A program made the position numbers and the translations under genes. The notes under the pieces were generated by a model. That model worked only from the letters and a program-made list of their open reading frames with translations. It did not search any database and was not told where the DNA came from. DNA of 64,000 nucleotides from an uncultured Aliarcobacter sp. (lineage in GTDB: Bacteria; Campylobacterota; Campylobacteria; Campylobacterales; Arcobacteraceae). Position 1 is the stretch's first letter, and each line of letters begins with the position of its first letter. The DNA lies in the NCBI GenBank assembly GCA_963664305.2, contig CAXXLV010000001.1, forward strand, positions 832,001 through 896,000, in the 5' to 3' direction. Positions 24,948 to 46,453 of the stretch are shown here, piece after piece.

Positions 24948-24981
24948 TTAAACCTGACACTTTTAATTAAATAGGTCAAGA

Positions 24982-25019: not shown

Positions 25020-25022
25020 GAA

Positions 25023-26572: not shown

Positions 26573-26575
26573 TAT

Positions 26576-27754: not shown

Positions 27755-28015
27755 TTAATTTTCTCTCTGAAACTCTTTCATGAAAATCATGAAGAGCCTA
27801 GAAGGAAAGAAGAGTTTTATTTTAAATTTTTAGTTTATTTTGCACCTTTATTTTAGATGTTATATATAGTTGTAAAAAAAAATATAAGTTTTTCTCTATT
27901 TATTTTATAAATAGGAATAAAAAAATTATGAAATAATAATTTTCATTGGAACTTTTAATATAATAATTGTTAGTATTGTAAAATATTAACGATATTAACC
28001 TAAGGAAATAAAAGC

Positions 28016-30481: not shown

Positions 30482-30517
30482 AAATCTATAATTCAATTGG
30501 TGTCAAATTGGTGCCTT

Positions 30518-30584
30518 TAAATACCATTTATTAGCTTCATAAAATATAATTAATATTTTAGGAGTAATGACTAAATGGTATTTA
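30518..30584. repeat. long imperfect inverted repeat inside the element's right end
   Basis: TAAATACCATTTA (30518-30530) / TAAATGGTATTTA (30572-30584), inner TAAAATAT/ATATTTTA. Confidence 0.7.
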
Positions 30585-30609
30585 TTAGTTAAGAGTTCGA
30601 TTCCTATAA

Positions 30610-30628
30610 AATCCTACCAGGCGTGCCA
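30610..30628 (+). repeat. att core (distal duplicate of tRNA-Arg 3' end)
   Basis: AATCCTACCAGGCGTGCCA identical to 22798-22816. Confidence 0.92.
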
Positions 30629-31070
30629 TTTTTAAATCTAACACAATCCAAGATAGTCTATAAAATCCCGATAAAATCAAGCTTCTTGTTAAATATTAAT
30701 CTAACTTATGCTAATGTAATCTAATTAAATATAGAAAAAATTAGGGCGTTTGTTAGGGCGTAAGCCAAAAATATTGAAATTATCAAAAATTTATGCCCAG
30801 ATATTTTAATAGAACATTGTAAATACAGAAGTTAAGAGGATATTCAAAAATCTTCAAACTATTTCTATTTATTTTTTTATTTATATTATTCTAAAAAATG
30901 AAAATTTATGAATATTTAATTATTAATTGTAATATTAGATTATTTAATTATTTTTGAATAAATAAGCATTCAAAAATGTATTTAAAAATAATTAGTTTTA
31001 AGTTTTTCTTTAGTGTATCTTGTGTTAGAATATATCCCAAGTTAGAAAAACTCTAATTCAAGGATAATAT

Positions 31071-31619
31071 TTGCCATATCTTGTTTCATCAATAATTGCA
31101 ATTGTTTCAGCTTTAATAATTTTACTTACTAGATATGAAGCTGATGACAGTACAATAACAAGTGAACTTGATAGAATGAAATCTATGTTTATAACAATGG
31201 ATGGATTTGTAAATACTTATATTCAATCTGGTGGAACTTTATCAAGTATAAATTTTGAGGAATTGGATAAAGCGGGTATTTTATTATCAAATATGGAAAT
31301 AACTCCAGTAGCAGATACAAATTCTAGTACTGGTGAAAATAAAACTACAACAAAATTTCCAAATAGTGAAGTGATTTGGCAAATTATACCAAATATAAAT
31401 GACACTAGTTCATATAAACTTTTAGTAGATATGTCAAAAGCTAGTGCATTGATGAGTAAGGCTATTTTCTCAGAAAGTTTCTCAGGTCGAGAATTTTGTG
31501 AAAAGATGCTTTTTGGTACATTTGATCAAAATGGAAGTGCATATGTTGAGGGAACAAAAGATTTTGGAACAACAGGCACAACAAAAGACGGAATTTTTGT
31601 TTGTATAGTTTTTAAGTGA
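31071..31619 (+). CDS. pilin-like protein without class III leader
   Basis: TTG start after AAGGA; N-terminal hydrophobic helix MPYLVSSIIAIVSALIILL, amphipathic helix, C-terminal Cys pair. Confidence 0.6.
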   Translation: MPYLVSSIIAIVSALIILLTRYEADDSTITSELDRMKSMFITMDGFVNTYIQSGGTLSSINFEELDKAGILLSNMEITPVADTNSSTGENKTTTKFPNSEVIWQIIPNINDTSSYKLLVDMSKASALMSKAIFSESFSGREFCEKMLFGTFDQNGSAYVEGTKDFGTTGTTKDGIFVCIVFK

Positions 31620-31700
31620 TTTTTGGTGCAACTAAAATAATAGTTGTTGTATAATAGGGCGGTTGGTAGGTAAACTTAAATTTAATAAAGGGGAAAGAAA

Positions 31701-32399
31701 ATGCCACAGTTGATAGCTATGATTATCGTAGTAGTTGGAGCAATGATTTATATGTTCCAAACATTTGGAGGAACTGGAGATAAAATCGAAGGTATTGCAC
31801 AAAAAACAAGTATTATTACTGAAATTAATAATATAAAAGATGGGGTTAAAATCGCAGCTAAATCAGAGCAAATTGCAAGTACAGCATCAGGTGATAAAGT
31901 TAACACTTTAGAGGGATTAGCAGCTCTTTCATATTTTGCAGAACAAATTAATACACAATTAACTGATACAAATAATAATGCAAATAATGCAAATATATAT
32001 AATGCTATTTCATTTGGTGGTGGAGTTGTATCTGCTGCAACAAATACTAGTGATATGCAAATTTCTTTAGTAGCACCAGCTGCAGTTGGTACTGTAAAAA
32101 GAGTACCTGGAATATTTGTAGATTTTTCTAAAGGTGGTTTATCTTCAAATGCTGCATTTTTAGAATCACAAATAGCAAGTGATTTAGCTGCTGTAGCTTA
32201 CATAGATAGAACAGCAACAAGTGCTACAGCAAAAAGTGGAGTAATTAGTTCAACAGGTTCATCTATTGAACAACGAACACCTGCTATTGGTACTGTAGAT
32301 GCTGATGGGAAGCCTGTTGATCCTACAGCTGCTCAATTAGGTGATGGAATGTTCATTCTTTATTTTAAAGATTTTGGTTCAGACGAAGTAGTTCAATAA
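31701..32399 (+). CDS. putative major pilin-like subunit without class III leader
   Basis: MPQLIAMIIVVVGAMIYMFQTFGG plus long amphipathic helix, Ala/Ser/Thr/Gly-rich head; TATAAT at 31650, strong RBS, downstream hairpin. Confidence 0.65.
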   Translation: MPQLIAMIIVVVGAMIYMFQTFGGTGDKIEGIAQKTSIITEINNIKDGVKIAAKSEQIASTASGDKVNTLEGLAALSYFAEQINTQLTDTNNNANNANIYNAISFGGGVVSAATNTSDMQISLVAPAAVGTVKRVPGIFVDFSKGGLSSNAAFLESQIASDLAAVAYIDRTATSATAKSGVISSTGSSIEQRTPAIGTVDADGKPVDPTAAQLGDGMFILYFKDFGSDEVVQ

Positions 32400-32424
32400 T
32401 ATTTAGGCTTTTGCCTAAATATTA
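32397..32424 (+). terminator. perfect 12-bp stem after putative major pilin gene
   Basis: TAATATTTAGGC-TTTT-GCCTAAATATTA followed by T-run. Confidence 0.75.
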
Positions 32425-32501
32425 TATTTTAAAAAACAAAACCTAAGTGCTAAGTATTAGCATTTACTTTTTGTTTTACTCTTAAAAAAGGTTTTTTTCT
32501 A

Positions 32502-33236
32502 ATGTTGGGAAATATATGGCTATCATCGGCACTTATTGTTACAGCTATATTTTCTGCAGGTGCTATGTATAAATCTTATAGTGATATTCAAGAAGCAAAA
32601 CAAATCCAAGAACATTATGAAATAATCTCTGAAATCAAAACTTTATTAGCCAAGCAATACAATAAAAATCCAGATGAAATAACACGTGATGATATTATTG
32701 CCAATTTACCAAAAGGTGAAAACTGGGGAAAAGTTCTTCTTCTTGATAGAAATAAAGATAGCAATCTTTCTAATAAAGAGTTAGTAAATGAAACTGGAAA
32801 TTTTGAGATAAGTGAAGATGAAAAGTTAAAATTACTTGCACTAAAAGCAAAACTAAAAGATGTTATTGATGTAACTTCAATTGAACCAGTTGATAAAAAA
32901 TATACTTTTGAAGTTGGGAAAGTTGAGAAAAATAGAGTATTAAATGATATTGATATTGAAGAAAATTTAACAAAAGCAATACATTTTTTGGCAGATGAAA
33001 TCTTATATAATACAAGTTCAAATAAAGAAACTACATTGAATGCAATTTTAGATGAGTTTACCCCTTATGATAAGCTTTATTTTGATTTTTTAAATAATGG
33101 CGAAACTTCGATTAGCGAACAAACGTTAAAAGATAGGAAAAAAGCTTATTTTAAATCAAGAATAAAAGATAGACTTTATAAAAATGAGAATGCACTTGAA
33201 ACAAGACTTTATAAAGAGTTGAAAGATATATTATGA
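32502..33236 (+). CDS. minor pilin-like / N-terminally anchored protein
   Basis: N-terminal hydrophobic helix followed by amphipathic helix; inside type IV filament cluster. Confidence 0.5.
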   Translation: MLGNIWLSSALIVTAIFSAGAMYKSYSDIQEAKQIQEHYEIISEIKTLLAKQYNKNPDEITRDDIIANLPKGENWGKVLLLDRNKDSNLSNKELVNETGNFEISEDEKLKLLALKAKLKDVIDVTSIEPVDKKYTFEVGKVEKNRVLNDIDIEENLTKAIHFLADEILYNTSSNKETTLNAILDEFTPYDKLYFDFLNNGETSISEQTLKDRKKAYFKSRIKDRLYKNENALETRLYKELKDIL

Positions 33237-33958
33237 AGAAAATTTTATTTATTTTATTTTTATTGATTAACTCATCTTTTGCTTTAGATTTAACTAATTT
33301 TGAAGATAGACAAAGTGCTCTTCAAGATGTAAAAACAATCATCTTATATGAAGAATCAATAGCAAAAGCTTATGAAGAGTATATTTTAACAAACTACAAG
33401 TTTCCAACTCTTGCTGAAATAAAAACATTGATAGGGAATTTAACTTTAGTAAATAATGTAAATTCAAATATAGCTTTGAGTAGTACATTGACAAAAATCT
33501 CTTATGGTTTAAATAGTGATTTAAAAGCTGATACTTCAATAAAAGCTTTATATGAAAGTAATACATATAGAAAAAGAACTTATGTTAGGAATGATGAGGT
33601 AAACTTTATTTTAGAAGATGAATTTGCGAAACATTTATATGATTTAATCAAACAAAATGGTGGCGCAATTCAAGATTGTCCAACGACAGCATTTACAACA
33701 GCTGTAAATTGTAAAGAGAATAATCATATTTATATTAAATTGACAAAAAAACTTGATGGTTTAGAAGTTGTTCCAAATACATATTTGATAGCATATCATG
33801 TTGATAATTTTAAAAATGGACCGATAATTATTACAAACGATACTTCAAAACATATTACTGAAAATGCTTTCGATTCTATACCAAAAGGTGCTTTGTTATA
33901 TGACATTGACGGTGTAAAATATGTAAAAACTTTAGATGGAATAGAGATTTTAAAATGA
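33233..33958 (+). CDS. exported protein with pseudopilin-head-like domain (paralog 1)
   Basis: Sec signal ending SFA; EESIAKAYEEYILTNYKFPT; LYESNTYRKRT. Confidence 0.6.
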   Translation: MKKILFILFLLINSSFALDLTNFEDRQSALQDVKTIILYEESIAKAYEEYILTNYKFPTLAEIKTLIGNLTLVNNVNSNIALSSTLTKISYGLNSDLKADTSIKALYESNTYRKRTYVRNDEVNFILEDEFAKHLYDLIKQNGGAIQDCPTTAFTTAVNCKENNHIYIKLTKKLDGLEVVPNTYLIAYHVDNFKNGPIIITNDTSKHITENAFDSIPKGALLYDIDGVKYVKTLDGIEILK

Positions 33959-34719
33959 TTAGACAATTTATACTTTTGATTACAATTTTAATATCATCTT
34001 TTTCACAAGATACATTAACAGCTCAAAAACAAAATACTTTATATATTCAAGATTTGATTCAAATAGAAGAGAATATCGCAAAAAATTTTGAAAAATATAT
34101 TTTAACTGAATATAAAATTCCAACAATAACAGATTTAATAGATGATAACTATTTAGGAAGTAATTTTTCTGTACTAAATAGAATGGGTGAAAATATTGAT
34201 TTTAAAGATAGTTCAAAATTACAACTAAAATATGCAATTACAAAAGATGAATATAGAAAAACAAGAGATGAAAATCTAGGAATTGAAAATTTTTTAGTTC
34301 AACTTTACAATAGAGATTTATACAGAGATTATACGACAGTTTTTAGTGATGATACTGATGTAAATAATATGTACGTTGAGTTTGAGCTAAAATCCGATGA
34401 AGCAAAAAATATATTTGATTTATTAAAAAATGGAAATAGTATTGCAAAAACTTGTGTTGCATCACTAAAAAGTACTTATTGCAACAATAATGATAGAACA
34501 ATTAGATGGTATAACGCTAGTTCAAATTGGATTGAATATGATAAAAAAGATTTTAATAAAGGGAATATAACAGTTAGTAGTGAAAGTATTTTAACTTCAG
34601 AAACAACAAAACTTTCAAATTTAAAAGTTGGTAGTTATATCTATATAAAAGATAAAACAAAAAATGTAAAAATGATAGATGATTCTTCTGGAAATTTACA
34701 AATTCTAAAGGTGGATTAA
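33955..34719 (+). CDS. exported protein with pseudopilin-head-like domain (paralog 2)
   Basis: Sec signal; EENIAKNFEKYILTEYKIPT...NYLG; LYNRDLYRDYT. Confidence 0.6.
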   Translation: MIRQFILLITILISSFSQDTLTAQKQNTLYIQDLIQIEENIAKNFEKYILTEYKIPTITDLIDDNYLGSNFSVLNRMGENIDFKDSSKLQLKYAITKDEYRKTRDENLGIENFLVQLYNRDLYRDYTTVFSDDTDVNNMYVEFELKSDEAKNIFDLLKNGNSIAKTCVASLKSTYCNNNDRTIRWYNASSNWIEYDKKDFNKGNITVSSESILTSETTKLSNLKVGSYIYIKDKTKNVKMIDDSSGNLQILKVD

Positions 34720-37641
34720 ATCAAAACTCTAATTTTTATAATCATATTTTTTAATTTTGTTTTTGCGTCAAGTGAAAATATATCATTGATGAATAATGTA
34801 AAATCTCTTATTCAAAAAGAGGAATATATATCATTAGCATTAAATAAATATATTTTACAAACAGGAAAAATTCCTAAAAAAAGTGATGATACAATAGATT
34901 GGGATAAATTAGAAGTTAAAGACTATTTAGGAACAAATTTTAATAAAACAAATCCTCTTACTTCAAAAGATATTGTAATAACTTTTGATGATAAAAATAG
35001 TGCATTTATTAAAGGTGCTATCGAAAAAGAGACAGATTATAATGAAGAGTATAATTATCTATATAATTTTTATACGAATAAAGTATTTAGAGTAAATACA
35101 ATTCCTCCAAAAAATATTTCTAAAACAGAGTTGGTAAAAGGTTCCCTTGTTTTATATAACTCTTTACAAAAAGAGATAGTTTCTGTTTTAACAAAAGGAG
35201 ATAATTCTATATTTTTACCTTCTCAAAGTTGTAATTCAGGACAATATTTTTATGAACTAAAAAATGAAAAATTAATCTACAAATATTGTAAAACAGCAAG
35301 CAATTCTATAGAAGTTTATCAAAAGGCACCAGTTTATTTAGATAATTTAGATGATTTAGCATATATAAAAGTGGGAATAGGTGAAAAAGCTTATGTAAAA
35401 GATGGAAATTCTTGGTATGAGTATTATTATGAAGGAAATAATACATGGATACCATCAGGAACAGGAAGAACAACAGGGCAAGTAAATGATGAAATAAGTA
35501 TAGGAGATAGAATTTTATCTTATATTCCTGATGCAAAAGATTTGCTTTTAAGACGTGATGGTGGCTGTATGTTAGCAAATGGTGATATTTTTTGTTGGGG
35601 AAATAATCAATATAAAAAAGCAGGAATACAAAGTTATGGGCAATTAGATAAAACTTTATCTCCTGATTATGTTAATACACCTGTAATGTTAAAAGTTCAA
35701 ATAGAAGATATTAATACAGGAACAGAAACATTAGATTTAATAAATAAAAAATGGTACAACAATCCATATAGAATAAAATTTGAAAAAATGGCAATGAATA
35801 GTAGTAATGTTTGTGCTATTTCACCTTTATTTAATTATTTTGATAAAGTTCAAAAAAAGTTTGGTGGAGATTTATATTGTAATGGACAAATTTCACAAAT
35901 GTATTTTGAAAATATTAGTTCAACTGTAAGTGAAACTTCTATTTTAAGTAAAAATAAATTTTTTGGATGGGGAAAAAGTGATCAGACTGATGATAGTCCT
36001 AAAACTATCAAAATATCTGATGATGGAGGACCAGTTATAGAAGATGGTTCAGGTAATGAATTAATGATTACAAGAGATGAAATCTATTTAACAGATATTG
36101 TAATGGTTGAAGATACAATTGCTGTTTTATCTGATGAAGGAAAAATTTATACAATAGGAAGAAACTATAAAGGTGGATTAGGTATAGGAAGTAGTGATAA
36201 ATTTATTGTTCAGTTAACTCCAGAAGAAGTAAAAAGTAATGGAGCAATATTTAAAAAAATATTTGCATTAAGAGATACTGCGATGTTTGGTGCAATAGAT
36301 AGTAATAACTATTTTTATATTTGGGGTGAAAGACCTAATGGTACAGTTTATTATGAGCCAACACTTGTTAGTAGTTCTTTAAAATTTAATCCAGATGGAA
36401 TTTTTACAAATAGTAAAGATTTTCTTTTAAAGGGAGTTGATAATAACTTTTATAGAACAGTTGGAAATAAAGAACTAAGTCTTGTAAGTGAAATTCCAAG
36501 TAGTGCAGTTAGTGCATCAATCTATGATAATAATTCTCAAGAATTATATGTATATGTAAATGATAGTATGCAGTTATTTGGAAGTAGTGATTTTTTAACT
36601 TGTAAAACAACTACAGCAACAAACTGTACAACAACAGATAATAAAATTTTTACAACTGCTTTGGATGAGTTAAATACTTTTTCAAATAATTTTAATGGAA
36701 AAGATTATGCAAATTTTTCAAATATTTCAATTTATCAATTAGACACTGTTAAATATGAAATTTTTGAAGATTTTGAAGATGGAAAATCAACAGGATGGGA
36801 TGGAAGTTCAGTAAATAAAAGTTCTGGAAAAATTAGGGTAACTTCTGTAAGTGATGATGGTACAGATGAAATACCTGTAACAAAATTTTTAGGTAGTTTT
36901 AATATTGAAGAGGTTGAATATGGAAGTCAACCTCCAATAAATTATACAAATAAACCTTCTTATATAGAAAAAACATTCTCTATAGGGACAAGTTATGCAA
37001 ACAATGAAGTTGAATTGGAATTTGACTTTTATGAGATTGATACTTGGGATTTTGAAAGATTTACTGTAACTTTAAATGATGTAGTTTTTGTTGAAGATGA
37101 TTTTATACATGATAACCATCCTTATCTTTCTGATATAAATGATACTGGAGAATCATTACAAAAAGTTGGTTCTTCAGGAAGTTACAATAACGATAATGAT
37201 GAAAAATATCATTATAAAATAAAAACAAAATTAGATTCTTCTGGAAAATTAAAAGTTAGATTTAGTACAAGAGGTTTAAAAAGTACGGATTATGGTTATA
37301 ATGGTTGGTCTTTCGCTCAATCAAGAGGTGATGAATCATGGGGAATAGATAATGTACATGTGAAAGTAAAAGAGACAAGTAAAACTTTTGTATGTGCAAT
37401 GACAGGAATAGGTAGCCAGTCTCAAATGTATTGTTGGGGAAATGTTGGACGAAGTATACCAATTTTAAGCACATCTTTATATGATGTAAGTAAAATAAAT
37501 ACTATAAATAAGTTATTTATTTCTCAAGAAAGTGATAAGACTTCTCAAATGGCTTTTGATAATTTTAATAACAATGGGAATTTATTTCTAAAATATCCAA
37601 CTTATATCGGGGGATTCGATTATGCATTTTATTTTAAATAA
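34720..37641 (+). CDS. large exported protein: pseudopilin-head-like domain, RCC1-like repeats, inserted beta-sandwich; putative tip adhesin
   Basis: ORF track starts at 34786, but frame is open from ATC 34720 encoding (I/M)KTLIFIIIFFNFVFA; GDIFCWGNN, GKIYTIGRN, QMYCWG repeats. Confidence 0.65.
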   Translation: MKTLIFIIIFFNFVFASSENISLMNNVKSLIQKEEYISLALNKYILQTGKIPKKSDDTIDWDKLEVKDYLGTNFNKTNPLTSKDIVITFDDKNSAFIKGAIEKETDYNEEYNYLYNFYTNKVFRVNTIPPKNISKTELVKGSLVLYNSLQKEIVSVLTKGDNSIFLPSQSCNSGQYFYELKNEKLIYKYCKTASNSIEVYQKAPVYLDNLDDLAYIKVGIGEKAYVKDGNSWYEYYYEGNNTWIPSGTGRTTGQVNDEISIGDRILSYIPDAKDLLLRRDGGCMLANGDIFCWGNNQYKKAGIQSYGQLDKTLSPDYVNTPVMLKVQIEDINTGTETLDLINKKWYNNPYRIKFEKMAMNSSNVCAISPLFNYFDKVQKKFGGDLYCNGQISQMYFENISSTVSETSILSKNKFFGWGKSDQTDDSPKTIKISDDGGPVIEDGSGNELMITRDEIYLTDIVMVEDTIAVLSDEGKIYTIGRNYKGGLGIGSSDKFIVQLTPEEVKSNGAIFKKIFALRDTAMFGAIDSNNYFYIWGERPNGTVYYEPTLVSSSLKFNPDGIFTNSKDFLLKGVDNNFYRTVGNKELSLVSEIPSSAVSASIYDNNSQELYVYVNDSMQLFGSSDFLTCKTTTATNCTTTDNKIFTTALDELNTFSNNFNGKDYANFSNISIYQLDTVKYEIFEDFEDGKSTGWDGSSVNKSSGKIRVTSVSDDGTDEIPVTKFLGSFNIEEVEYGSQPPINYTNKPSYIEKTFSIGTSYANNEVELEFDFYEIDTWDFERFTVTLNDVVFVEDDFIHDNHPYLSDINDTGESLQKVGSSGSYNNDNDEKYHYKIKTKLDSSGKLKVRFSTRGLKSTDYGYNGWSFAQSRGDESWGIDNVHVKVKETSKTFVCAMTGIGSQSQMYCWGNVGRSIPILSTSLYDVSKINTINKLFISQESDKTSQMAFDNFNNNGNLFLKYPTYIGGFDYAFYFK

Positions 37642-37649: not shown

Positions 37650-39311
37650 ATGTTGAAAGATTTTAAAAATTTATGGTTTTTAGGAACGCTTTTTTTACTA
37701 CTAGGTGGTTGTAGCTCAAAAGATTATCATGAAGAGATGCTTGAGAATACAAAATCTTCTTTAGATAAAGAAAATTACAATGCGATAAAAAAATCATATT
37801 CCGATTCCTTAGTTGATGAAAAAGTAAAAGATAAAGAGTTCATAAGTATTTTAGAAGATAAATCTTTAAGTGATATTTTAAAAGAGATGGAGATTTTAGA
37901 TGGTAATTTTTACTATTTAAAAAGTAGTGATGTTTTAATACCAAAAAGTAGAATTAAAATACATAATATTACAGAGTTAAATCAGTATTTAAATGCTGTT
38001 TTAGATAAAGAATTATTTATTAAGAAAAATGGTTCAATTTATCTTGTAAAACTTTTAAGTACTAGTGAAACAAAAAAACAATCAATAGAACATATTCCTT
38101 TTAAATTAGATGGTCAAATATCAGTTGAAGAGTTAATCAAACTAATTACAACAGAATCAGGCTATGAAGTAAATATTGGAAATTATATAGATAATAAAGA
38201 TGATTTCCAAAATAGTATTATTAGTATTAGTTCAAAAGATTTAAAAGATGCATTAAATTCTTTAGGTCATGCAAAAGATGTATATGTTGACATAGATTAT
38301 GATAAAGAAGTTATAAATATAACAAGATATAAAGATACAGTTATAGAATTAAATATTCCTTTATTAGATATCAAATCTACAAGTCAAACAACTAATCAAG
38401 AATCAACTGGAGAGAGCAAAGTAGAAAACAATTCTCAAATTGTTTTATATGATGAACTTGACAAAATGTTAAAAAATATAATCTCAACAGATAAAATTTC
38501 AACTTATCATATAGATAAAGCTAGTGGATTGATATTTCTAAAATCAACAAAATCAATAGAAAATGCAGTAAGAACTGTAGCAAAAGCTTATGAATCAACA
38601 TTCTCAAAAGAAGCAGTTATTGAGTTTGAAAGAATTGAAATACTTTTAAATAAAAATAGACAATATGGAATTGGAAGTATTTCAGATGATAGACAAACAA
38701 ATGCAGGAACAGGAGTTATAAGAGGAATTGGAGCTGATGGAGCACTTAATTTTACAAGTGATAATGTAACTAGACTTTTAAAAGTTGCAGCAACTGCAAA
38801 CAATGAAATTGGAAAAATATTAAACTACAGTAAAAATATGATTGTTCTAAAAAACAATATTCCAACTGTTCAATCAATCACTGAAAATACAGATTATGTT
38901 GAAAAAATTGAAACTACAATTGATGCAGATACAAATACAAGAACTTCTGATGTTACAGTAAATACTTTGAAAGAAGGAACTTCAATAACAGCAATGGCAA
39001 AAATATCAAGAGATAAAATTTTCTTGAATATCTTACCATCAATTAAAAAATTAATTGAGTTTGGAGAAGTAAGTATTGATGGAACAACTATTAAATTACC
39101 TCAGTACAATGACCAAAGTTATAACATTTCTAGAGAAGTAAGCTTAGGTGAAACTGCAATAGTTGGTTCAATTATTGTTCATGATGATACAAAAAATTAT
39201 CAAGGAGTTTTACCGGTGGAAGGATTTGCAATTGGTGGAACAGATTCAAAATCTTATGTAAGAAGAGAGATTGTTTACGTAGTTACTCTTAGAAATATTA
39301 AAGGCTTTTAA
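37650..39311 (+). CDS. lipoprotein secretin (type II secretion / type IV pilus family)
   Basis: Lipobox LGGC; IDKASGLI; LKNNIPT; EGTSIT; IKLPQ; LGETAIVG; RREIVYVVT. Confidence 0.8.
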   Translation: MLKDFKNLWFLGTLFLLLGGCSSKDYHEEMLENTKSSLDKENYNAIKKSYSDSLVDEKVKDKEFISILEDKSLSDILKEMEILDGNFYYLKSSDVLIPKSRIKIHNITELNQYLNAVLDKELFIKKNGSIYLVKLLSTSETKKQSIEHIPFKLDGQISVEELIKLITTESGYEVNIGNYIDNKDDFQNSIISISSKDLKDALNSLGHAKDVYVDIDYDKEVINITRYKDTVIELNIPLLDIKSTSQTTNQESTGESKVENNSQIVLYDELDKMLKNIISTDKISTYHIDKASGLIFLKSTKSIENAVRTVAKAYESTFSKEAVIEFERIEILLNKNRQYGIGSISDDRQTNAGTGVIRGIGADGALNFTSDNVTRLLKVAATANNEIGKILNYSKNMIVLKNNIPTVQSITENTDYVEKIETTIDADTNTRTSDVTVNTLKEGTSITAMAKISRDKIFLNILPSIKKLIEFGEVSIDGTTIKLPQYNDQSYNISREVSLGETAIVGSIIVHDDTKNYQGVLPVEGFAIGGTDSKSYVRREIVYVVTLRNIKGF

Positions 39312-39313: not shown

Positions 39314-40330
39314 ATGAGTATGTTTGCTGATCCATATGAACAATTTTTGCTTGATTATCTTGTTACAAAATTAGAAAATGGTTCTAATACAAGAAGAGCA
39401 TTATTGTTATATAGTGAACAAATTACAAGAGAAACAAATTTCAAAAAAAGATTAATGGCTGCCATTAAAGATATGGAAATAGGAAAACATAAACTTGAAG
39501 CTATTTTACATAAACATAAATTTTTGAATAGTTTTCAATTTAGTTTGGTTGTAAATAGTACAAATACCTTAGATGGATTAAAGCTTGTTTTATCTTTTAA
39601 AAAAGCAAATTCAAATCTGATGTTAAAGATGATAAATCCTATTTTTGTTCCTTTATCTATTATCATTGGTACTTTTTATGGTTTGATTTTATATCTTGAT
39701 ATGTTACAAAAAGATTTAGTTCAATTAAGAAAGTTAAATCCTGATGTGGAACAATTTTTAGGAATACCAAAATATTTTACTTATGATGTGGCTTACATAG
39801 GATTAGGAGTTTCTATATTTGTTACGGCATTTATATTTTTTGGATATTTGTATACTGAAAAGTATAAACCAGCATGGTTATATAAAGTATTTAAAACTCA
39901 AGCGTTTTCTGATGGAAGATTTATGTTTAGGATTTTAAATGGTATGTTAAGTGCTGGTATCTCTTTTCATAAAACTTCATTGATTTTATCAAAAGATTAT
40001 TTTAAAGAGGGGCTTCGACCATTTTTTAAAGAGTTGGCAGAGATGATAAATAAAAATAGAAAACTATTTATTATGTTTGAAAAATACAATTTTCCTGCAA
40101 TCATAACAGCCGATATAAAATTGTCAGAGTTAAGTAAAACAAGTTTTTCAGAAGTTACAAAAGCTTTATATCAAACATGTGACACAATGTATGAAAAAAA
40201 CATAAATTATATGGTTTTACAATGGAAGTTTATGTTTTGGATGATTGCAATGTTGGTTACTGTAATAATAGGTTCAGATGTTATTAACTTGGTAATTAGT
40301 ACTTTTACATTTAAAACTTTATATCAATAG
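39314..40330 (+). CDS. GspF/PilC-like inner membrane platform protein (divergent)
   Basis: Two helical cytoplasmic repeats with three TM helices; RILNGMLSAGISF; lies between secretin and ATPase. Confidence 0.7.
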   Translation: MSMFADPYEQFLLDYLVTKLENGSNTRRALLLYSEQITRETNFKKRLMAAIKDMEIGKHKLEAILHKHKFLNSFQFSLVVNSTNTLDGLKLVLSFKKANSNLMLKMINPIFVPLSIIIGTFYGLILYLDMLQKDLVQLRKLNPDVEQFLGIPKYFTYDVAYIGLGVSIFVTAFIFFGYLYTEKYKPAWLYKVFKTQAFSDGRFMFRILNGMLSAGISFHKTSLILSKDYFKEGLRPFFKELAEMINKNRKLFIMFEKYNFPAIITADIKLSELSKTSFSEVTKALYQTCDTMYEKNINYMVLQWKFMFWMIAMLVTVIIGSDVINLVISTFTFKTLYQ

Positions 40331-40341: not shown

Positions 40342-42033
40342 ATGATAAAGAAAATAGTAACAACTTTAAAGAATACTCCTAAATTTCCTTTTATGAAAAG
40401 TGAAAAAAAGAAGAAATCTCAGAAAAAAGTGAAAAAAGCAGAGTTTGATTTTAAAGATTTTTTTGAAAAACAAAAGAAGTCAATTTATGATTTTATAGGT
40501 AAAAGTGACGACCCAGATACTCATTTATCAAATATAATCGAAGATATGATTAAAGAGAAATTCCATTTAAAAGGTGGATATGGAGATTTAATCGCAAATG
40601 AAGAAAAATATGAACAATTTGTAAGAACTTTAGGTTATGAATATTATGCAACTTACAATGAATTATCAAAATATTATCAAGATACTTCATTTCAACTTGA
40701 TGAAAAAAAACTTGAATTTTGTACAACAATGTATATTATTACATTAGAAGATAAAAAGAATAAAAATAAAGTTTTAGGTATTAGAGATGTTGTAAATCTT
40801 GATTTTGAAATTTTAAGTAAATTCTATTTTACAAAAATAGTAGTTTTAGGTGAGGGCGTTTTATCTTCAGTTTTTGGGGAAGATAGAGAGATTATTTTTA
40901 GTTCAAATAGTGATACAGAAAATGATGAAGAGATAAATAAATATTTTGACAAAATGATGGGACAAGCTATTTTACTTGGAGCATCTGATATCCATATTCA
41001 AAAAACAAGTAGATATGCTTCTTTATGGTTTAGAATTGATGGTATAAAAGTTGATATGGGAACAATGCCAATTACTATTGCAAAAACATTAAAAAGAAGA
41101 CTTGTAACTATGGCTGACCAAGAGGATTCAGATTATGAATCAATTAATGGGGTTATAAATTATGAATATGGAAAGAAAAATATTAAATTCAGACTTGGTC
41201 TTATAAATTCAAAATTAAACTTTTCATTAGTTATGAGGATGATTGGTGGACGTGGAGTTGTTTCTCATAATTTAAGAGGGTTAAACTATCCACAAGAAAC
41301 AGTTGATATCCTTTCAAATTTAACAAAATATGCAAATGGAATGATATTAATTACCGGACAAGTTGGAAGTGGTAAAACACACTTGATGTATGCTTTATTA
41401 CAACAACTTGCAAAACAACAACAATATGTAATTACAATTGAAGATCCAGTTGAATATGTGGATGAATCTTTCTTCCAAATTGATTTATCTGAGTTTGCAA
41501 GTGCAAGTGAGGAGTTTAAGTATGGTTACCCAGAAGCCGTTGTTGATATCCTAAGACAAGATTCAAATATCATCTTAATTGGGGAAACAAGAGAACCACA
41601 AACGGCATCACAACTTGTAAATGCATCTAACTTAGGTCAGTTAGTTTTCTCAACAATGCACACAAACTCAGCCCCAGCAACTGTTTCAAGGATGACAAGT
41701 TCTCTTGGAATAAATGAAGGGGATATTATCGATAACTTAAGAGGTATTGTATCTCAAAGATTAGTTCGAAAATTATGTAAATTTTGTAAAGAACCTGATG
41801 GAGAAGGTGGATATAAAAAAGTTGGTTGTGATGAATGTAACCATACAGGGTTTAAAGATAGGGTACCAATCGCTGAGGTTGTAAGATTTAAACTTGGACA
41901 TGGTGGTGATTTTGAAAATCCAGCAGAATATATGACGGTTGAAAAAGCTTCAATGGCACAATACAAAGAAGGGTTAATAACAAAAGAAGATGCAATTGCA
42001 ATTATCAGAGGGGAAGAAGTATGGTACGATTAG
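40342..42033 (+). CDS. GspE/PilB-family assembly ATPase
   Basis: ASDIHI, FRIDG, GQVGSGKT, TIEDPVE, LRQD, IGETR, STMHTN, SQRLVRKLC..C / C..C Zn site. Confidence 0.93.
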   Translation: MIKKIVTTLKNTPKFPFMKSEKKKKSQKKVKKAEFDFKDFFEKQKKSIYDFIGKSDDPDTHLSNIIEDMIKEKFHLKGGYGDLIANEEKYEQFVRTLGYEYYATYNELSKYYQDTSFQLDEKKLEFCTTMYIITLEDKKNKNKVLGIRDVVNLDFEILSKFYFTKIVVLGEGVLSSVFGEDREIIFSSNSDTENDEEINKYFDKMMGQAILLGASDIHIQKTSRYASLWFRIDGIKVDMGTMPITIAKTLKRRLVTMADQEDSDYESINGVINYEYGKKNIKFRLGLINSKLNFSLVMRMIGGRGVVSHNLRGLNYPQETVDILSNLTKYANGMILITGQVGSGKTHLMYALLQQLAKQQQYVITIEDPVEYVDESFFQIDLSEFASASEEFKYGYPEAVVDILRQDSNIILIGETREPQTASQLVNASNLGQLVFSTMHTNSAPATVSRMTSSLGINEGDIIDNLRGIVSQRLVRKLCKFCKEPDGEGGYKKVGCDECNHTGFKDRVPIAEVVRFKLGHGGDFENPAEYMTVEKASMAQYKEGLITKEDAIAIIRGEEVWYD

Positions 42034-42770
42034 TAATTACTGATTTTGCAACAAAAGAGGATAGTGAATTTTTCTATATAAATGATGAATTTGATGTTTC
42101 TCAAAATATGTTTACATATCATTCCTTTAAAAAATATAGTGTATATCTATCAAAATATACAAATGATGAAATTTATTCATTAAATTTATTATCAAAAAGA
42201 TATTTAGGAAGAAATCAATTTTTAATCCATATTGCTGATGGAGAGTATGTAATTTTATTTAATCATAAAACAGTATATTCTGCAAAAATAAATCAAAACT
42301 TTATTACAGATGACATGATTAAATCAATTTTGATTACAAAACATATAGCAATGCTTTCAAGTGGTGGAGCAATTGAAAATATTTATTATGTAATTAACTC
42401 AAAATATAAGTGTGCAATTGAGAATATTTTAAAACAAAATACAAAAAATGAGAAACAAGAAGTAGTAGCTAAATCTTTAGGAGAAATTGAAGAATTAGTT
42501 AAACCTTTAAAAGAGTTAGATACAGCAAAATCTCATACAACAAAACTAACTTATATGTCATTACTATTAGGGGTAAGTTGTTGGGTAATGTTTTCAGGAT
42601 TAAAAACATTTACTGATAAAGTTTTTTATACTGAACCTTTAGAAAATTTACATAGAGAGTTAAAAATTGAGACTCAACTAGCAAAACGTCAAGAAAAATT
42701 ATTGGGTGAAAGTCAAAATAAATATAAAGAATTAGTTGATTGTATAACTCCAACTAAGGTAGTGAAATGA
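42021..42770 (+). CDS. bitopic membrane protein, possible GspL/PilM-N-like alignment subunit
   Basis: Cytoplasmic domain, one TM helix, coiled coil; overlaps ATPase stop; role inferred from position. Confidence 0.45.
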   Translation: MVRLVITDFATKEDSEFFYINDEFDVSQNMFTYHSFKKYSVYLSKYTNDEIYSLNLLSKRYLGRNQFLIHIADGEYVILFNHKTVYSAKINQNFITDDMIKSILITKHIAMLSSGGAIENIYYVINSKYKCAIENILKQNTKNEKQEVVAKSLGEIEELVKPLKELDTAKSHTTKLTYMSLLLGVSCWVMFSGLKTFTDKVFYTEPLENLHRELKIETQLAKRQEKLLGESQNKYKELVDCITPTKVVK

Positions 42771-43258
42771 TTAGTATAAGCAATAAAGTAATAAAAAATG
42801 GAAGTAAATTAATTATTTCAACTTTAGTAATTTATTCAATAGTTTATGTTGGATTTAGAGCTTTAAACTATTATAAAACATATTATGAAAAAGAAAAACT
42901 TACAAATGAACTTCAAATAAAAAGAGATGAAACAATATCATTAAAAACTAGAGCTAATGAAGCAAAGAAAAAAATTGAAGATTTAGAAAAAAGTTATATC
43001 TCAAAAGAAGAAATTGAAACAAAAGTAAAAGATATCTTTTCAAGAATGTCTTTACTTGATTATCAATTAGATTTTGTAGATTCAAAAAAAATGTGTATAG
43101 ATAGATATATAATCATAACTAGAGTACATACTCAAAGTGAAAATGGACTAAAAGCAGCAGAAGGTATTTTATCATATCTAGGAGAAATTAAAAAAAGTGA
43201 TATGGATGAATCTTTATATTTTGTAAATTATATTTCAAAACCTAGGGAAATAAAATGA
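42767..43258 (+). CDS. bitopic membrane protein, possible GspM/PilO-like subunit
   Basis: N-terminal TM helix, coiled coil, small alpha/beta domain. Confidence 0.5.
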   Translation: MISISNKVIKNGSKLIISTLVIYSIVYVGFRALNYYKTYYEKEKLTNELQIKRDETISLKTRANEAKKKIEDLEKSYISKEEIETKVKDIFSRMSLLDYQLDFVDSKKMCIDRYIIITRVHTQSENGLKAAEGILSYLGEIKKSDMDESLYFVNYISKPREIK

Positions 43259-45456
43259 AAGTTTGTATGAAAGCTTTTTTCCTTTTTTTCCTTTCTATAA
43301 ATTATTTATTCGCAGATAATTATATAGATTCTTTAACTCTTACAAAAATAAAAAAACTTGTACAAAAAGAAGAAGAGATAGCTTTTGCATATAAAAAATA
43401 TCTTTTAGAAAAGGGAACAACTCCTACAACTATTGATACTTTAAAAGAGCAAAATTATTTACCAAAGGGATTTGATTTTATAAATCCTTTTGGTAAAGTA
43501 ATTACTTTAAAAAATGATGAATATGTAATAAATGGTTTTTCAACTATGGATAATGTTTTAAAATCAAATTTATATGATTACTATTATTCAAGTAAGTACA
43601 GAACTTATACTAAAGCTCCGTTAAGTACAAATGAAACTGATGTAGGAATTATTTTATCAACAAAAGAAAAATTCATTTTTAATAATAAAAGTAAAATTAC
43701 AACTACAAAAGCAGATGCAAAAGCAAAATATTATTTAGATTCAAATGGGGTTTTACATTGGTATGATGTAAATGGGAATTATAAATACTCTTTTGATAAA
43801 GATTTACTTCTTGATGAAAATGTAACGTTATTAAATGAAGATGGGACAGTAAATAGTACATATAAAGAGTTAGTAAAAGATGTGTCTTTTGCAGGAATGA
43901 CTGTTTTACATAAAAATACTACTTCAAGTACAGCTGATGAATATATTATGATTGGTTCATCAAGTGCAGTAAAAGTAAAACAAACAACAAGAGATATAGG
44001 AAAAACAGTTATTCAATTTACTAGACGTGCTGGTGGAATGATTGTAAATGGAGATATTTATACTTGGGGAAATATAGCTAATAGAATTGTAGGTATAGAT
44101 ATAGATAATAATAAATATACAAAAGAAAATGGTAGTTTAGGTTCATATTATCCAGTTATTACAGGATTAGTTAGAGCAAGAGCTAAAACATATGATACAA
44201 ATATAGACAATCAAAACTACTTTTCTTCACCCTTAAGACCAAAATTTGTTGATTTTTTTAGTACAGTTTTTCATAGTACTTGTGGAATTTCAATAAAAGG
44301 AGAATTATATTGTGGAGGACTTGCAAGTGCATATCAAAAAGGTTTTTTATATTCTAATGTAGATCCATCGAGTCCAAGTGTTGAAATGTTGTATAAAAGT
44401 AAAGATTTTGATGGTACAGTTAATAAAAAAGCAACTAAAATATTTGCGAATGATGGATTTTGGTTAATTTTTGGAAATACTGATACAGATAATAATGGAA
44501 ATTATAAAAATGGTAAAATTTATAGATGGGGTGGCACAAACTATGGATTTGGAGGAACAGGAAATAGAACTTATTCAACTACAAGAATATCAGAATTAGA
44601 TATAACAGATAATAATGTAAAAGTATTATTTAAAGACTTAACATATCTTCTTACTCTTGGACATAGGAAAATAGCAGCATTATCTAATCAAGGAGATATT
44701 TATATTTGGGGAGTAGATACATATAATTCAAATTCTTTTGATTGTACAATTAAATGGGAAAATATTAATTATGATTTATGTGTACCAACTAAAATTATAA
44801 TTTCGAATTCAACAATGAATTCTTCAATAAAATTTGAATCAATTCAAGGTGGATTAGACTCTTTTATTGCAAAAAGTGAAGATGGAATATATTATAAAAT
44901 TTCTCACCCAATTAATAAAAAAATACAAGTGATACCTATAGATAGTACAATAAAAAATTATGAAGAATATAAATTAGAAGATGATGTAGAACTTTTATCA
45001 GTTGATTTTTCTAAAAAAGTTTCAGAAATAGGAACAACAACTGCAAGTAATGGAATAGTTTGGATAAATAGTAAAAATGAATTAAAAGGTGATTATTATA
45101 CAGATGAAAATAAAAATGATCCAGTATTTAAAGATTCTATAAAAAAAATAAAATGGAAAAAAATAAAAGTTATACAAGATGATAATGGTATGTGTGGAAT
45201 TGATATAAATGATCAAATGTATTGTTGGGGAATGATGTCTTTTTATGGTCAAGATATGAGAGATACATTTATGTTACCAGTATTTAATACAAATTTATAT
45301 GATTCTAATAAGGATTTTTTAGTTGTTGAGGGAGGTAATTCAAATCTTACAAACATGACATCTGATGATTGGACAACTAGTGATTCAAAAAAACCATTTT
45401 TTATGAAGTATCCTACATATATAGGTGGATTTAATTATGAGTTTATATTTAAATAA
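43255..45456 (+). CDS. large exported protein: pseudopilin-head-like domain plus RCC1-like repeats; second putative adhesin
   Basis: Sec signal; EEEIAFAYKKYLLEKGTTPT...NYLP...NPFG; GDIYTWG, GELYCGG, QMYCWG; C-terminus shared with 34720 protein. Confidence 0.65.
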   Translation: MKVCMKAFFLFFLSINYLFADNYIDSLTLTKIKKLVQKEEEIAFAYKKYLLEKGTTPTTIDTLKEQNYLPKGFDFINPFGKVITLKNDEYVINGFSTMDNVLKSNLYDYYYSSKYRTYTKAPLSTNETDVGIILSTKEKFIFNNKSKITTTKADAKAKYYLDSNGVLHWYDVNGNYKYSFDKDLLLDENVTLLNEDGTVNSTYKELVKDVSFAGMTVLHKNTTSSTADEYIMIGSSSAVKVKQTTRDIGKTVIQFTRRAGGMIVNGDIYTWGNIANRIVGIDIDNNKYTKENGSLGSYYPVITGLVRARAKTYDTNIDNQNYFSSPLRPKFVDFFSTVFHSTCGISIKGELYCGGLASAYQKGFLYSNVDPSSPSVEMLYKSKDFDGTVNKKATKIFANDGFWLIFGNTDTDNNGNYKNGKIYRWGGTNYGFGGTGNRTYSTTRISELDITDNNVKVLFKDLTYLLTLGHRKIAALSNQGDIYIWGVDTYNSNSFDCTIKWENINYDLCVPTKIIISNSTMNSSIKFESIQGGLDSFIAKSEDGIYYKISHPINKKIQVIPIDSTIKNYEEYKLEDDVELLSVDFSKKVSEIGTTTASNGIVWINSKNELKGDYYTDENKNDPVFKDSIKKIKWKKIKVIQDDNGMCGIDINDQMYCWGMMSFYGQDMRDTFMLPVFNTNLYDSNKDFLVVEGGNSNLTNMTSDDWTTSDSKKPFFMKYPTYIGGFNYEFIFK

Positions 45457-45472
45457 AATTAAAAGGGAAAAA

Positions 45473-46444: not shown

Positions 46445-46453
46445 GAAAGTAAA

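What the first reader, a model, noticed from the sequence alone, without database searches (positions are those of the whole stretch)
31071..32424. Two tandem 'MPxL' leaderless pilin-like genes, the second organised like a major subunit
Seen: both begin M-P-x-L directly into a ~20-aa hydrophobic helix (MPYLVSSIIAIVSALIILL; MPQLIAMIIVVVGAMIYMF), followed by an amphipathic helix. In-frame stops just upstream (TAA 31065-31067 and 31686-31688) exclude a missed leader. The second gene has its own TATAAT (31650), a strong RBS and a 12-bp hairpin after it. Established: Met aminopeptidase can remove Met before Pro. Inference: a mature N-terminal Pro replaces the usual N-methyl-Phe and there is no Glu5, so these would be pilins made without peptidase processing.
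Basis: partly seen in the sequence, partly recalled or inferred. Interest (0 to 1): 0.85.

Follow-up and report, generated by a model that had tools for sequence, protein, structure and literature searches.

The report
Pilin-like genes without leader peptides
Two neighbouring genes of an Arcobacter-type bacterium look like the building blocks of a type IV pilus but are made without the short leader peptide that all known pilins carry, so this pilus machine may need no leader-cutting enzyme.

Summary
Gene 1 (31071-31619, TTG start) and gene 2 (31701-32399) begin MPYL / MPQL and run straight into a 20-residue uncharged helix. In-frame stops lie 1 and 4 codons upstream.

Both belong to large families found only in Arcobacteraceae, with no Pfam, NCBIfam or PHROG match. 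No homologue carries a leader: 115 of 120 gene-2 relatives start MPQL, and the other 5 are truncated gene calls.

The genes head a conserved operon with a lipoprotein secretin-like protein, a divergent GspF/PilC platform and a GspE/PilB ATPase. The operon has no prepilin peptidase.

The N-terminal segments are the best-conserved parts of both proteins, whereas true signal peptides in the same operons are the least conserved. This argues against signal peptidase I cleavage.

Best reading (about 0.62): these are the minor and major subunits of a type IV filament system that has lost the class III leader and Glu5. Filament formation, Met removal and the role of Pro are inferred, not shown.

The parts
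31060..31064 (+). Shine-Dalgarno (AAGGA) of gene 1
   Evidence: Read, 6 nt before the TTG start. An AAGGA-type motif sits in the same place in most related loci.
31071..31619 (+). Gene 1: leaderless pilin-like protein, 182 aa, TTG start; candidate minor subunit
31650..31655 (+). TATAAT, possible -10 box of an internal promoter for gene 2
   Evidence: Read. An exact TATAAT at -50 to -55 from the ATG is kept in 9 of 24 loci. The consensus scan did not list it, and the region has no excess of promoter-like sites.
31690..31694 (+). Shine-Dalgarno (GGGGA) of gene 2
   Evidence: Read. An AGGA/GGGG motif lies 5-9 nt before the ATG in the related loci.
31701..32399 (+). Gene 2: leaderless pilin-like protein, 232 aa; candidate major subunit
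32396..32425 (+). 13-bp hairpin overlapping the gene-2 stop codon, followed by UAUAUUUU
   Evidence: -15.7 kcal/mol, z -4.06. A comparable stem occurs in 18 of 22 loci, with sequence changes that keep the pairing. It is absent in the two minimal loci, where the secretin gene follows directly.
32502..33236 (+). g3: 244-aa protein with a conserved uncharged N-terminal hydrophobic segment; possible third anchored subunit
   Evidence: conservation of residues 1-20 is 0.81. No family match. Not linked to g1 or g2 by hhalign.
33233..34719 (+). g4 and g5: two paralogous Sec-exported proteins (241 and 254 aa)
   Evidence: hhalign 99.8 %. Their signal peptides are variable, at 0.46 and 0.48. Both are absent from the minimal loci L018 and L028.
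34720..37641 (+). g6: large RCC1-like beta-propeller protein; the start is probably ATC at 34720, which gives a Sec signal peptide
   Evidence: Pfam RCC1-type hits.
37650..39311 (+). g7: lipoprotein, secretin-like outer-membrane channel
   Evidence: Lipobox LLGGC. TIGR02519 MshL E 7.6e-12 and TIGR02520 PilN E 4.1e-5, both below the curated cut-offs. No Pfam Secretin hit in 0 of 11 members and no PDB match.
39314..40330 (+). g8: polytopic inner-membrane protein, divergent GspF/PilC platform
   Evidence: The window protein scores T2SSF 12.6 bits, E 0.14. Homologues P0314, P0365, P0367 and P0361 score 30.2-35.4 bits, above the 25.2 cut-off, each with two stretches. Sources name one relative a type II secretion system F family protein. 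It is the most conserved gene of the operon, at 79-94 %.
40342..42033 (+). g9: GspE/PilB-type assembly ATPase
   Evidence: Pfam T2SSE E 8.2e-66. TfpB, GspE and PilB models score about 195 bits. Closest solved chain is EpsE/GspE, E 1.8e-45.
42021..47524 (+). g10-g14: bitopic proteins (249 and 163 aa), a second RCC1-like protein (733 aa), an SH3-domain protein (339 aa) and a 356-aa protein
   Evidence: g10, g11 and g13 are kept in the minimal loci L018 and L028.

Best explanation
Genes 1 and 2 encode the minor and the major subunit of a divergent type IV filament system restricted to Arcobacteraceae. The subunits have a type IVb pilin-like shape: an uncharged N-terminal helix of about 20 residues, a kink, an amphipathic helix and an alpha/beta head. 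Unlike all described pilins, they are translated without a class III leader peptide.

Proposed course (steps marked shown or inferred):
1. Translation starts at MPxL (shown by sequence and homologues).
2. Deformylase and Met aminopeptidase probably remove Met1, because Pro, or Ala in some gene-1 relatives, is a permissive second residue (inferred from general knowledge).
3. The hydrophobic segment is not cut off. It anchors the protein in the inner membrane with the head in the periplasm (inferred from conservation, and from the even number of Cys in gene 1).
4. The GspF-like platform g8 and the GspE/PilB-like ATPase g9 lift subunits out of the membrane and stack them. Gene 1 would prime assembly and gene 2 would form the bulk (inferred).
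5. The fibre leaves through the lipoprotein secretin-like g7 (inferred).

No prepilin peptidase step is needed. Classical pilins of this organism already have leaders of only four residues, so losing the leader is a small evolutionary step. Whether the product is a long surface pilus or a short secretion pseudopilus is open.
For: No leader:
- In-frame stops lie 1 and 4 codons upstream.
- 115 of 120 gene-2 relatives start MPQL. The other 5 are shorter calls starting at an internal Met, and none is extended.
- Every full-length representative in the exhaustive profile search aligns residue 1 to profile position 1.
- 24 of 24 gene-2 loci have no canonical start codon upstream of the MPQL start.

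Fold:
- Gene-2 model: pLDDT 88.2, pTM 0.83, helices 2-22 and 25-54, then an alpha/beta head.
- In the second look the top 9 rows are all pilins, and then Z drops to 3.0.
- Gene 1, modelled independently, gives the same answer: 9iuf 7.5, TcpA 6.8, PilA1 6.5, PilS 5.7.

Context:
- 18 of 18 related loci that reach far enough downstream carry the secretin-like gene, g8 and the ATPase after genes 1-2.
- Two minimal loci consist of g1-g2-secretin-g8-ATPase-g10-g11-g13 only.
- The ATPase is GspE/PilB-type, and g8 relatives pass the Pfam T2SSF cut-off.
- The window has no Peptidase_A24 and no N_methyl pilin.
- In complete genomes the peptidase gene lies hundreds of kb from the operon.

The segment is not a signal peptide. 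In the same 14 genomes the conservation of residues 1-20 is:

| Protein | Segment | Conservation |
|---|---|---|
| g2 | N-terminal hydrophobic helix | 0.96 |
| g1 | N-terminal hydrophobic helix | 0.80 |
| g4 | true signal peptide | 0.46 |
| g5 | true signal peptide | 0.48 |
| secretin | lipoprotein signal peptide | 0.42 |

No Lys or Arg occurs in the first 22 residues of any of the 115.

Pilin-like conservation pattern: gene-2 residues 1-50 score 0.80-0.93 and the head 0.17-0.78, with many insertions and deletions.

Other points:
- Gene 1 has 2 or 4 Cys in 118 of 120 relatives, with an invariant pair near the C-terminus.
- The genome's own classical pilins have 4-residue leaders, MKTA|FSLLE and MKKS|FSLLE.
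- A hairpin follows gene 2 in 18 of 22 loci.
Against: - No sequence method links either protein to pilins: Pfam, NCBIfam and PHROGs give nothing, a PDB profile search gives nothing, and the exhaustive HMM search stays inside the family.
- Two defining pilin features are absent, the class III leader and Glu5. A charged N-terminal amine would sit in the fibre core without its usual partner.
- There are no positive charges before the hydrophobic segment to fix an N-in topology.
- Gene 2 has no Cys, so it has no D-region disulfide.
- T21-F22-G23|G24 could serve as a signal peptidase I site.
- The secretin call rests on one sub-threshold model.
- The window's own g8 does not reach the T2SSF cut-off, and hhalign against the genome's PilC-like protein gave 4.8 %.
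- A housekeeping A24 peptidase is present in 149 of 151 genomes of the family, so independence from it cannot be read from gene content.
- Nothing here shows a filament.
Confidence: 0.62

Rival explanations
1. Genes 1 and 2 encode membrane-anchored periplasmic proteins with a pilin-like shape. They serve as fixed parts of the assembly machine or as anchors for the Sec-exported proteins g4-g6 and g12, and are never polymerised. The fibre, if there is one, would be built from classical pilins encoded elsewhere and cut by the housekeeping peptidase.
For: - The genome has three classical N_methyl pilin genes and two A24 peptidases elsewhere.
- Glu5 and the leader, both normally needed for assembly, are missing.
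Against: - The full-length alignment to pilins inside solved filaments includes the N-terminal helix: model residue 2-3 falls on chain residue 1.
- The pattern of a conserved N-terminus with a variable, indel-rich head is typical of exposed fibre subunits.
- No other pilin candidate lies in any of the 18 operons.
- The minimal loci keep exactly g1 and g2 with the machine.
Confidence: 0.17
2. The N-terminal hydrophobic segments are unusual Sec signal peptides. Signal peptidase I removes them, for example after Gly23 in gene 2, and releases soluble periplasmic or secreted proteins.
For: - T-F-G|G fits the small -3/-1 rule loosely.
- Neighbouring genes g4, g5, g6 and g12 do use ordinary cleavable signal peptides ahead of a helix.
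Against: - Residues 1-20 are the most conserved part of g2 (0.96) and are well conserved in g1 (0.80). Real signal peptides of the same operons in the same genomes score 0.42-0.48.
- The first 22 residues contain no Lys or Arg (0 of 115).
- AF2 models the segment as one confident helix continuous with the next one (pLDDT 93 and 90 for residues 1-20), and it superposes on the alpha1-N helix of pilins in filaments.
Confidence: 0.07
3. This reading agrees on what the proteins are but differs on function. Genes 1 and 2 form a short periplasmic pseudopilus of a type II secretion-like machine. That machine pushes the Sec-exported operon proteins (g4, g5 and the RCC1-like g6 and g12) through the secretin, rather than forming a long adhesive pilus.
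For: - The ATPase is closest to GspE/EpsE: 159 bits against 139 for PilB.
- The operon has no retraction ATPase.
- Four operon proteins carry Sec signal peptides, as type II substrates do.
Against: - The minimal loci L018 and L028 keep the machine without g3-g6 and g12.
- The gene-2 head is large, variable and indel-rich like an exposed major pilin.
Confidence: 0.25

Closest known systems
Type IVb major pilins (V. cholerae TcpA, ETEC CofA/longus-type pilin, Salmonella Typhi PilS)
   Same: - Overall predicted architecture and size are alike: an N-terminal helix of about 50 residues with a break, and an alpha/beta head with an extra long helix.
- They are encoded next to a lipoprotein secretin-like gene, a platform and an assembly ATPase, as in type IVb clusters (the cluster layout is recalled).
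- One small and one large-copy subunit lie in tandem.
   Different: - There is no leader at all, whereas type IVb pilins have long leaders (recalled).
- There is no Glu5.
- The second residue is Pro.
- Gene 2 has no disulfide.
- The cluster has no prepilin peptidase gene.
- No sequence similarity is detectable.
Classical type IV pilins of the same genome (N_methyl, PF07963)
   Same: The hydrophobic N-terminal helix has similar length and composition. After the cut the classical ones read FSLLE-LIFAIVILG / FSLLE-IIIVITLIG, and gene 2 reads (M)PQLIA-MIIVVVGAM.
   Different: - The classical ones carry a 4-residue basic leader (MKTA, MKKS), Phe+1 and Glu+5.
- Genes 1 and 2 have only Met before the helix, no charge in the first 20-22 residues, and no PF07963 match.
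Type II secretion major pseudopilin GspG/PulG and minor pseudopilins
   Different: The structural similarity is much weaker than to type IVb pilins. Pseudopilins have the class III leader and Glu5 (recalled). No GspC, L, M or K relatives were found.

Membership tests
Type IV pilin (class III signal peptide protein) | Class III signal peptide: a short basic leader cut by prepilin peptidase just before the hydrophobic helix | tested here: not met
   In-frame stops lie 1 and 4 codons upstream. 115 of 120 gene-2 relatives start MPQL and none is extended. 24 of 24 loci have no canonical upstream start. The PF07963 genome scan finds nothing in the window.
Type IV pilin (class III signal peptide protein) | Glu at position 5 of the mature protein | tested here: not met
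   None of the 115 gene-2 relatives that start MP has Asp or Glu in the first 22 residues. None of the gene-1 relatives checked has one in the first 20.
Type IV pilin (class III signal peptide protein) | Hydrophobic alpha1-N of about 20 residues continuous with an amphipathic alpha1-C | tested here: met
   AF2 gives helices 2-22 and 25-54 for gene 2 and 2-21 and 25-52 for gene 1. These are predictions, not experiment.
Type IV pilin (class III signal peptide protein) | Alpha/beta head packed on alpha1-C with pilin topology | tested here: met
Type IV pilin (class III signal peptide protein) | C-terminal disulfide-bounded D-region | tested here: inconclusive
   Gene 1 has an invariant Cys143/Cys178 pair, but the bond itself is not shown. 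Gene 2 has no Cys in 120 of 120 relatives.
Type IV pilin (class III signal peptide protein) | Polymerises into a helical fibre | not testable with these tools
   It needs purification of fibres or cryo-EM.
Type IV filament machine (type IVb-like) | GspE/PilB-family assembly ATPase in the cluster | tested here: met
   PF00437 E 8.2e-66. TfpB, GspE and PilB models give E about 1e-57. EpsE gives E 1.8e-45.
Type IV filament machine (type IVb-like) | GspF/PilC-family platform protein | tested here: met
   4 of 5 homologues tested pass the Pfam T2SSF cut-off, each with two stretches. The window's own protein scores only 12.6 bits. hhalign to the genome's PilC-like protein was uninformative.
Type IV filament machine (type IVb-like) | Secretin, a lipoprotein in type IVb and MSH systems | tested here: inconclusive
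   The lipobox is present. TIGR02519 gives E 7.6e-12, far below its cut-off. Pfam Secretin matches 0 of 11 members. PDB searches are empty.
Type IV filament machine (type IVb-like) | Prepilin peptidase (Peptidase_A24) dedicated to the system | tested here: not met
   None is in the window. The two copies lie at C1:474 kb and C1:553 kb, and the window is at 832-896 kb. In complete relatives the peptidase and the operon lie hundreds of kb apart.
Sec-type cleavable signal peptide | Positively charged n-region | tested here: not met
   None of the 115 gene-2 relatives has Lys or Arg in the first 22 residues.
Sec-type cleavable signal peptide | Sequence evolves faster than the mature protein | tested here: not met
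   Conservation of residues 1-20 is 0.96 for g2 and 0.80 for g1. True signal peptides of g4, g5 and the secretin in the same 14 genomes score 0.46, 0.48 and 0.42.
Sec-type cleavable signal peptide | Small residues at -3 and -1 of a cleavage site after the h-region | tested here: inconclusive
   T21-F22-G23|G24 in gene 2 is a possible site. No predictor was available.

The most novel reading that the evidence does not exclude
This would be the first type IV filament family whose subunits bypass the prepilin peptidase entirely. The leader has shrunk to the initiator Met, and ordinary Met aminopeptidase exposes Pro. Pro's secondary amine chemically mimics the N-methylated first residue of classical pilins. 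The fibre assembles without the Glu5 to N-terminus salt bridge that is held to be essential. If true, the class III signal peptide is not a necessary feature of the superfamily.
Probability: 0.4. Interest if true: 0.85.

Novelty: new variant of a known kind. Interest (0 to 1): 0.78.

Why it matters
[quoted passage not shown] I saw this definition in a passage of PMC6668835.

A conserved system that keeps the ATPase, the platform, the channel and pilin-shaped subunits, but has neither leader nor Glu5, has three consequences:
- Leader cleavage, N-methylation and the Glu5 salt bridge would be dispensable for membrane extraction and assembly.
- It offers a natural system for testing what those features do.
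- Motif-based pilin finders would miss such systems altogether.

The system occurs in 28 of 151 sampled Arcobacteraceae genomes, in 10 of 22 genera. This group includes animal- and human-associated and wastewater species, so the fibre may matter for their adhesion or secretion.

Tried and rejected
- **Complex prediction with three copies of gene 2.** The result was 'no answer' (score 0.00, controls not run). It says nothing either way.
- **Expression from public RNA-labelled runs.** Only assembled contigs were available.
  - They cover gene 2: X6 record 26 spans 31703-32384 and X1 record 6 spans 31739-32441. One contig bridges gene 2 into g3 (X2 record 14, 31808-32770).
  - Contig depth cannot rank genes, and the RNA label is a guess for most runs. 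No statement on expression level, transcript start or a coverage step at 32424 is possible.
- **Gene content as a test of peptidase independence.** Peptidase_A24 is in 149 of 151 genomes of the family, so no genome has the system without a peptidase. The test does not discriminate.
- **Sequence links to known families.**
  - Pfam, NCBIfam and PHROGs give nothing for genes 1 and 2.
  - A PDB profile search gives nothing.
  - The exhaustive profile search found only the family itself, plus three weak hits to long unrelated proteins.
- **Platform identity by other routes.** The PDB profile search of g8 gave only an insignificant PilC N-domain hit (E 1.4). hhalign against the genome's PilC-like protein gave 4.8 %.
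- **Secretin identity.** PDB searches and Pfam gave no secretin match.
- **Are g3, g4 and g5 pilin paralogues?** hhalign found no link to g1 or g2. The shared helix motif and C-terminal strand motif remain an impression only.
- **Phage origin.** It was rejected. There are no PHROG hits. The neighbouring integrative element ends at an att repeat at 30610-30633, upstream of gene 1, and none of its genes accompanies the operon in the 23 related loci.
- **ESM Atlas.** The tool did not hold g8 and did not answer for a gene-2 homologue.
- **Literature.**
  - 'leaderless pilin': 0 papers.
  - 'peptidase-independent' + 'type IV pilin' + 'leader peptide': 0 papers.
  - Arcobacter + type IV pili + pilin: 5 papers, judged irrelevant from the listing only.
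  - Arcobacter + type II secretion + secretin: 2 papers, irrelevant.
  - Campylobacterota + type IV filament: 7 papers, none on such a system by title or abstract.
  - Subscription journals are not covered, so this does not prove that the system is unpublished.
- **Earlier findings of this scan.** Nothing was found for this place or this sequence.
Full report
**1. The observation**

The window is AT-rich, about 27 % G+C. It lies at 832-896 kb of a 2.78-Mb genome. Homologues bear Arcobacter and Aliarcobacter names.

Gene 1 runs 31071-31619 and encodes 182 aa. It starts with TTG, preceded by AAGGA and by an in-frame TAA one codon upstream. Gene 2 runs 31701-32399 and encodes 232 aa. It starts with ATG, preceded by GGGGA and by an in-frame TAA four codons upstream, and none of those four codons is a start codon. 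TATAAT lies at 31650-31655.

A 13-bp hairpin at 32396-32425 overlaps the gene-2 stop. It folds at -15.7 kcal/mol with z -4.06, and none of 200 shuffles folds as well. The generic scan did not call it a terminator and found no excess of promoter-like sites. The stem has 13 pairs rather than 12.

**2. Real, conserved genes without a leader**

| Measure | Gene 2 | Gene 1 |
|---|---|---|
| Relatives at E <= 1e-3 | 486 | 411 |
| Common starts among the 120 listed | 115 MPQL | 110 MPY[L/F/I] |
| Other starts | 5 shorter calls from an internal Met; none longer | 4 MAYF, 2 MQYF, 1 LPYF, 2 called from an upstream start, 1 truncated |
| Codons between upstream in-frame stop and start | 1-15 | 0-29 |
| Loci with ATG, GTG or TTG in that gap | 0 of 24 | TTG in 3 of 23 |

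All relatives are named 'hypothetical'. Neither gene has a Pfam, NCBIfam or PHROG match.

A profile of gene 2 was run against 1.84 billion cluster representatives. It found only 42 proteins at E <= 1e-3. Every one that matches the profile's start does so from its own residue 1.

M1 and P2 of gene 2 are invariant in 32 diverse sequences. In gene 1 the second residue can be P, A, Q or F. Among the relatives checked, no acidic residue occurs in the first 22 (gene 2) or 20 (gene 1) residues, and gene 2 also has no basic residue there. There is therefore no leader and no Glu5.

**3. Fold**

With a 32-sequence alignment, AlphaFold2 gives gene 2 a confident model (pLDDT 88.2, pTM 0.83). It has helix 2-22, a kink at Gly23-Gly24, helix 25-54 and an alpha/beta head.

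- Foldseek finds nothing significant, but its first three hits are type IVb pilins (best E 0.092).

|---|---|---|
| ETEC type IVb pilus 9iuf | 7.6 | 164 residues, rmsd 5.1, model 3-223 on chain 1-208 |
| S. Typhi PilS | 7.5 | not recorded here |
| TcpA | 7.2 | model 2-222 on chain 1-198 |
| CofA | 6.7 | not recorded here |
| C. difficile PilA1 | 6.3 | not recorded here |

- Gene 1 was modelled separately (pLDDT 77.3, the same architecture). It gives 9iuf 7.5, TcpA 6.8, PilA1 6.5 and PilS 5.7, with one non-pilin at 5.8.

**4. Context**

Genes 1 and 2 head a co-directional operon that runs to 47524.

| Gene | Coordinates | What it is |
|---|---|---|
| g7 | 37650-39311 | Lipoprotein with weak but significant matches to the MshL and PilN secretin models. 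It has no Pfam Secretin or PDB match. |
| g8 | 39314-40330 | Polytopic membrane protein, the best-conserved gene of the operon. Its relatives pass the Pfam T2SSF cut-off with two domains, although the window's copy does not. |
| g9 | 40342-42033 | GspE/PilB-type ATPase. |

In 23 related loci from Arcobacteraceae genomes, 22 have gene 1 directly upstream of gene 2. All 18 loci that extend far enough have g7, g8 and g9.

Two loci (L018, L028) show a minimal layout: g1-g2-g7-g8-g9-g10-g11-g13. The core is therefore two pilin-like genes plus a machine. g3-g6 and g12 are accessories.

The window contains no Peptidase_A24 and no classical N_methyl pilin. The genome has two of the former and three of the latter elsewhere. 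The system occurs in 28 of 151 sampled genomes of the family, in 10 of 22 genera. The peptidase is nearly universal (149 of 151) and lies far from the operon in complete genomes. No peptidase is dedicated to the system, but gene content cannot prove independence from the housekeeping one.

**5. Signal peptide or pilin helix?**

I used the operon's own proteins as a control. In the same 14 genomes the fraction of sequences sharing the majority residue over residues 1-20 was as follows:

| Protein | Residues 1-20 | Rest of the protein |
|---|---|---|
| g2 | 0.96 | 0.52 |
| g1 | 0.80 | 0.64 |
| g3 | 0.81 | 0.60 |
| g4 (Sec signal peptide) | 0.46 | not recorded here |
| g5 (Sec signal peptide) | 0.48 | not recorded here |
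| Secretin (lipoprotein signal peptide) | 0.42 | 0.81 |

In gene 2, residues 1-50 are the most conserved part (0.80-0.93). The head is variable and rich in insertions and deletions. This is the pattern of fibre-forming pilins. It is the opposite of a cleavable signal peptide.

Gene 1 has 2 or 4 Cys in 118 of 120 relatives, with an invariant pair at 143 and 178. That fits a periplasmic, disulfide-bonded head. A T-F-G|G site for signal peptidase I cannot be excluded from sequence alone.

**6. How it probably works**

- *Shown:* translation starts at MPxL, no leader exists in the family, the predicted shape is pilin-like, and the genes are linked to a type IV filament machine.
- *Inferred:*
  - Met1 is removed because Pro is a permissive second residue (general knowledge of Met aminopeptidase).
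  - The helix stays and anchors the subunit.
  - g8 and g9 polymerise gene-2 subunits on a gene-1 primer, and the fibre exits through g7.

The classical pilins of this genome have leaders of only four residues, MKTA|FSLLE and MKKS|FSLLE. After the cut they resemble (M)PQLIA..., so reducing the leader to the initiator Met is a short step.

A hairpin follows gene 2 in 18 of 22 loci, and TATAAT is kept in 9 of 24. This is compatible with higher output of gene 2 than of the downstream genes. It could not be tested: public runs gave contigs only.

*Unexplained:*
- How a charged N-terminal amine is tolerated in the fibre core without Glu5.
- What fixes the N-in topology without positive charges.
- Why Pro2 is invariant in gene 2 but replaceable in gene 1.

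**7. Comparison with the known**

The system works like a type IVb pilus or a type II secretion pseudopilus. It fails two defining tests for type IV pilins, the class III leader and Glu5, and it has no dedicated peptidase. I therefore do not file genes 1 and 2 as ordinary members.

The superfamily's subunits are defined in the literature by the class III signal peptide (passage seen in PMC6668835). Full-text searches for leaderless or peptidase-independent pilins returned nothing. Searches on Arcobacter or Campylobacterota filament systems returned nothing relevant by title and abstract. Subscription journals are outside that library.

**8. Verdict**

It is unproven in its chemistry (Pro as a stand-in for N-methyl-Phe) and in the existence of a fibre.

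Novelty is a new variant of a known kind. Interest is high, because it makes the necessity of leader cleavage, N-methylation and Glu5 directly testable in a natural system.

Noticed in passing
window 22740-30633: A 7.8-kb integrative element sits in tRNA-Arg (22740-22816). It has a 19-nt att repeat at 22798 and 30610, an integrase (22849-24012), an HTH_17 excisionase-like gene, an FtsK-like ATPase (25023-26312), a rolling-circle Rep of the phage GPA type (26576-27754) and an 821-aa TIR-domain protein (28016-30481), which is a likely defence cargo. It ends 440 bp before gene 1 and is not linked to the operon in other genomes. One wastewater contig runs on unlike the window exactly at 30610.
   Followed up: partly
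window 34717-34790: g5 and g6 are in the same frame, separated by a single TAA. The stretch 34720-34785 reads as a Sec signal peptide (IKTLIFIIIFFNFVFA|SS) with a strong Shine-Dalgarno (AAAGGTGGA) just before an ATC at 34720. g6 therefore probably starts at a non-canonical ATC, not at the TTG at 34786.
   Followed up: partly
window 32502-33236: g3 also starts directly with a conserved, uncharged hydrophobic segment (MLGNIWLSSALIVTAIFSAGA; conservation 0.81) followed by a helix. It could be a third leaderless anchored subunit. No fold prediction was possible, and hhalign shows no link to g1 or g2.
   Followed up: partly
window 33233-37641 and 43255-45456: g4, g5, g6 and g12 share a post-signal-peptide helix motif (EE.IA..[YF]E.Y[IL]L....P[TS]). 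Together with g1 and g2 they share a C-terminal strand motif (G.....[ILFV].[FL]K). g6 and g12 carry RCC1-like propellers and end in KYPTYIGGF.Y.F.FK. They may be pilin-related adhesins or secretion substrates. g4 and g5 are paralogues (hhalign 99.8 %).
   Followed up: partly
L031 1174-1572 (-) and L032 946-1560 (-), own genome: The classical type IV pilins of this genome have very short leaders of four residues (MKTA, MKKS) before FSLLE.
   Followed up: no
L029 8700-10000: One related genome has gene 2 and the rest of the operon but no gene 1 directly upstream. PgpA-like and YceI-like genes lie there instead.
   Followed up: no
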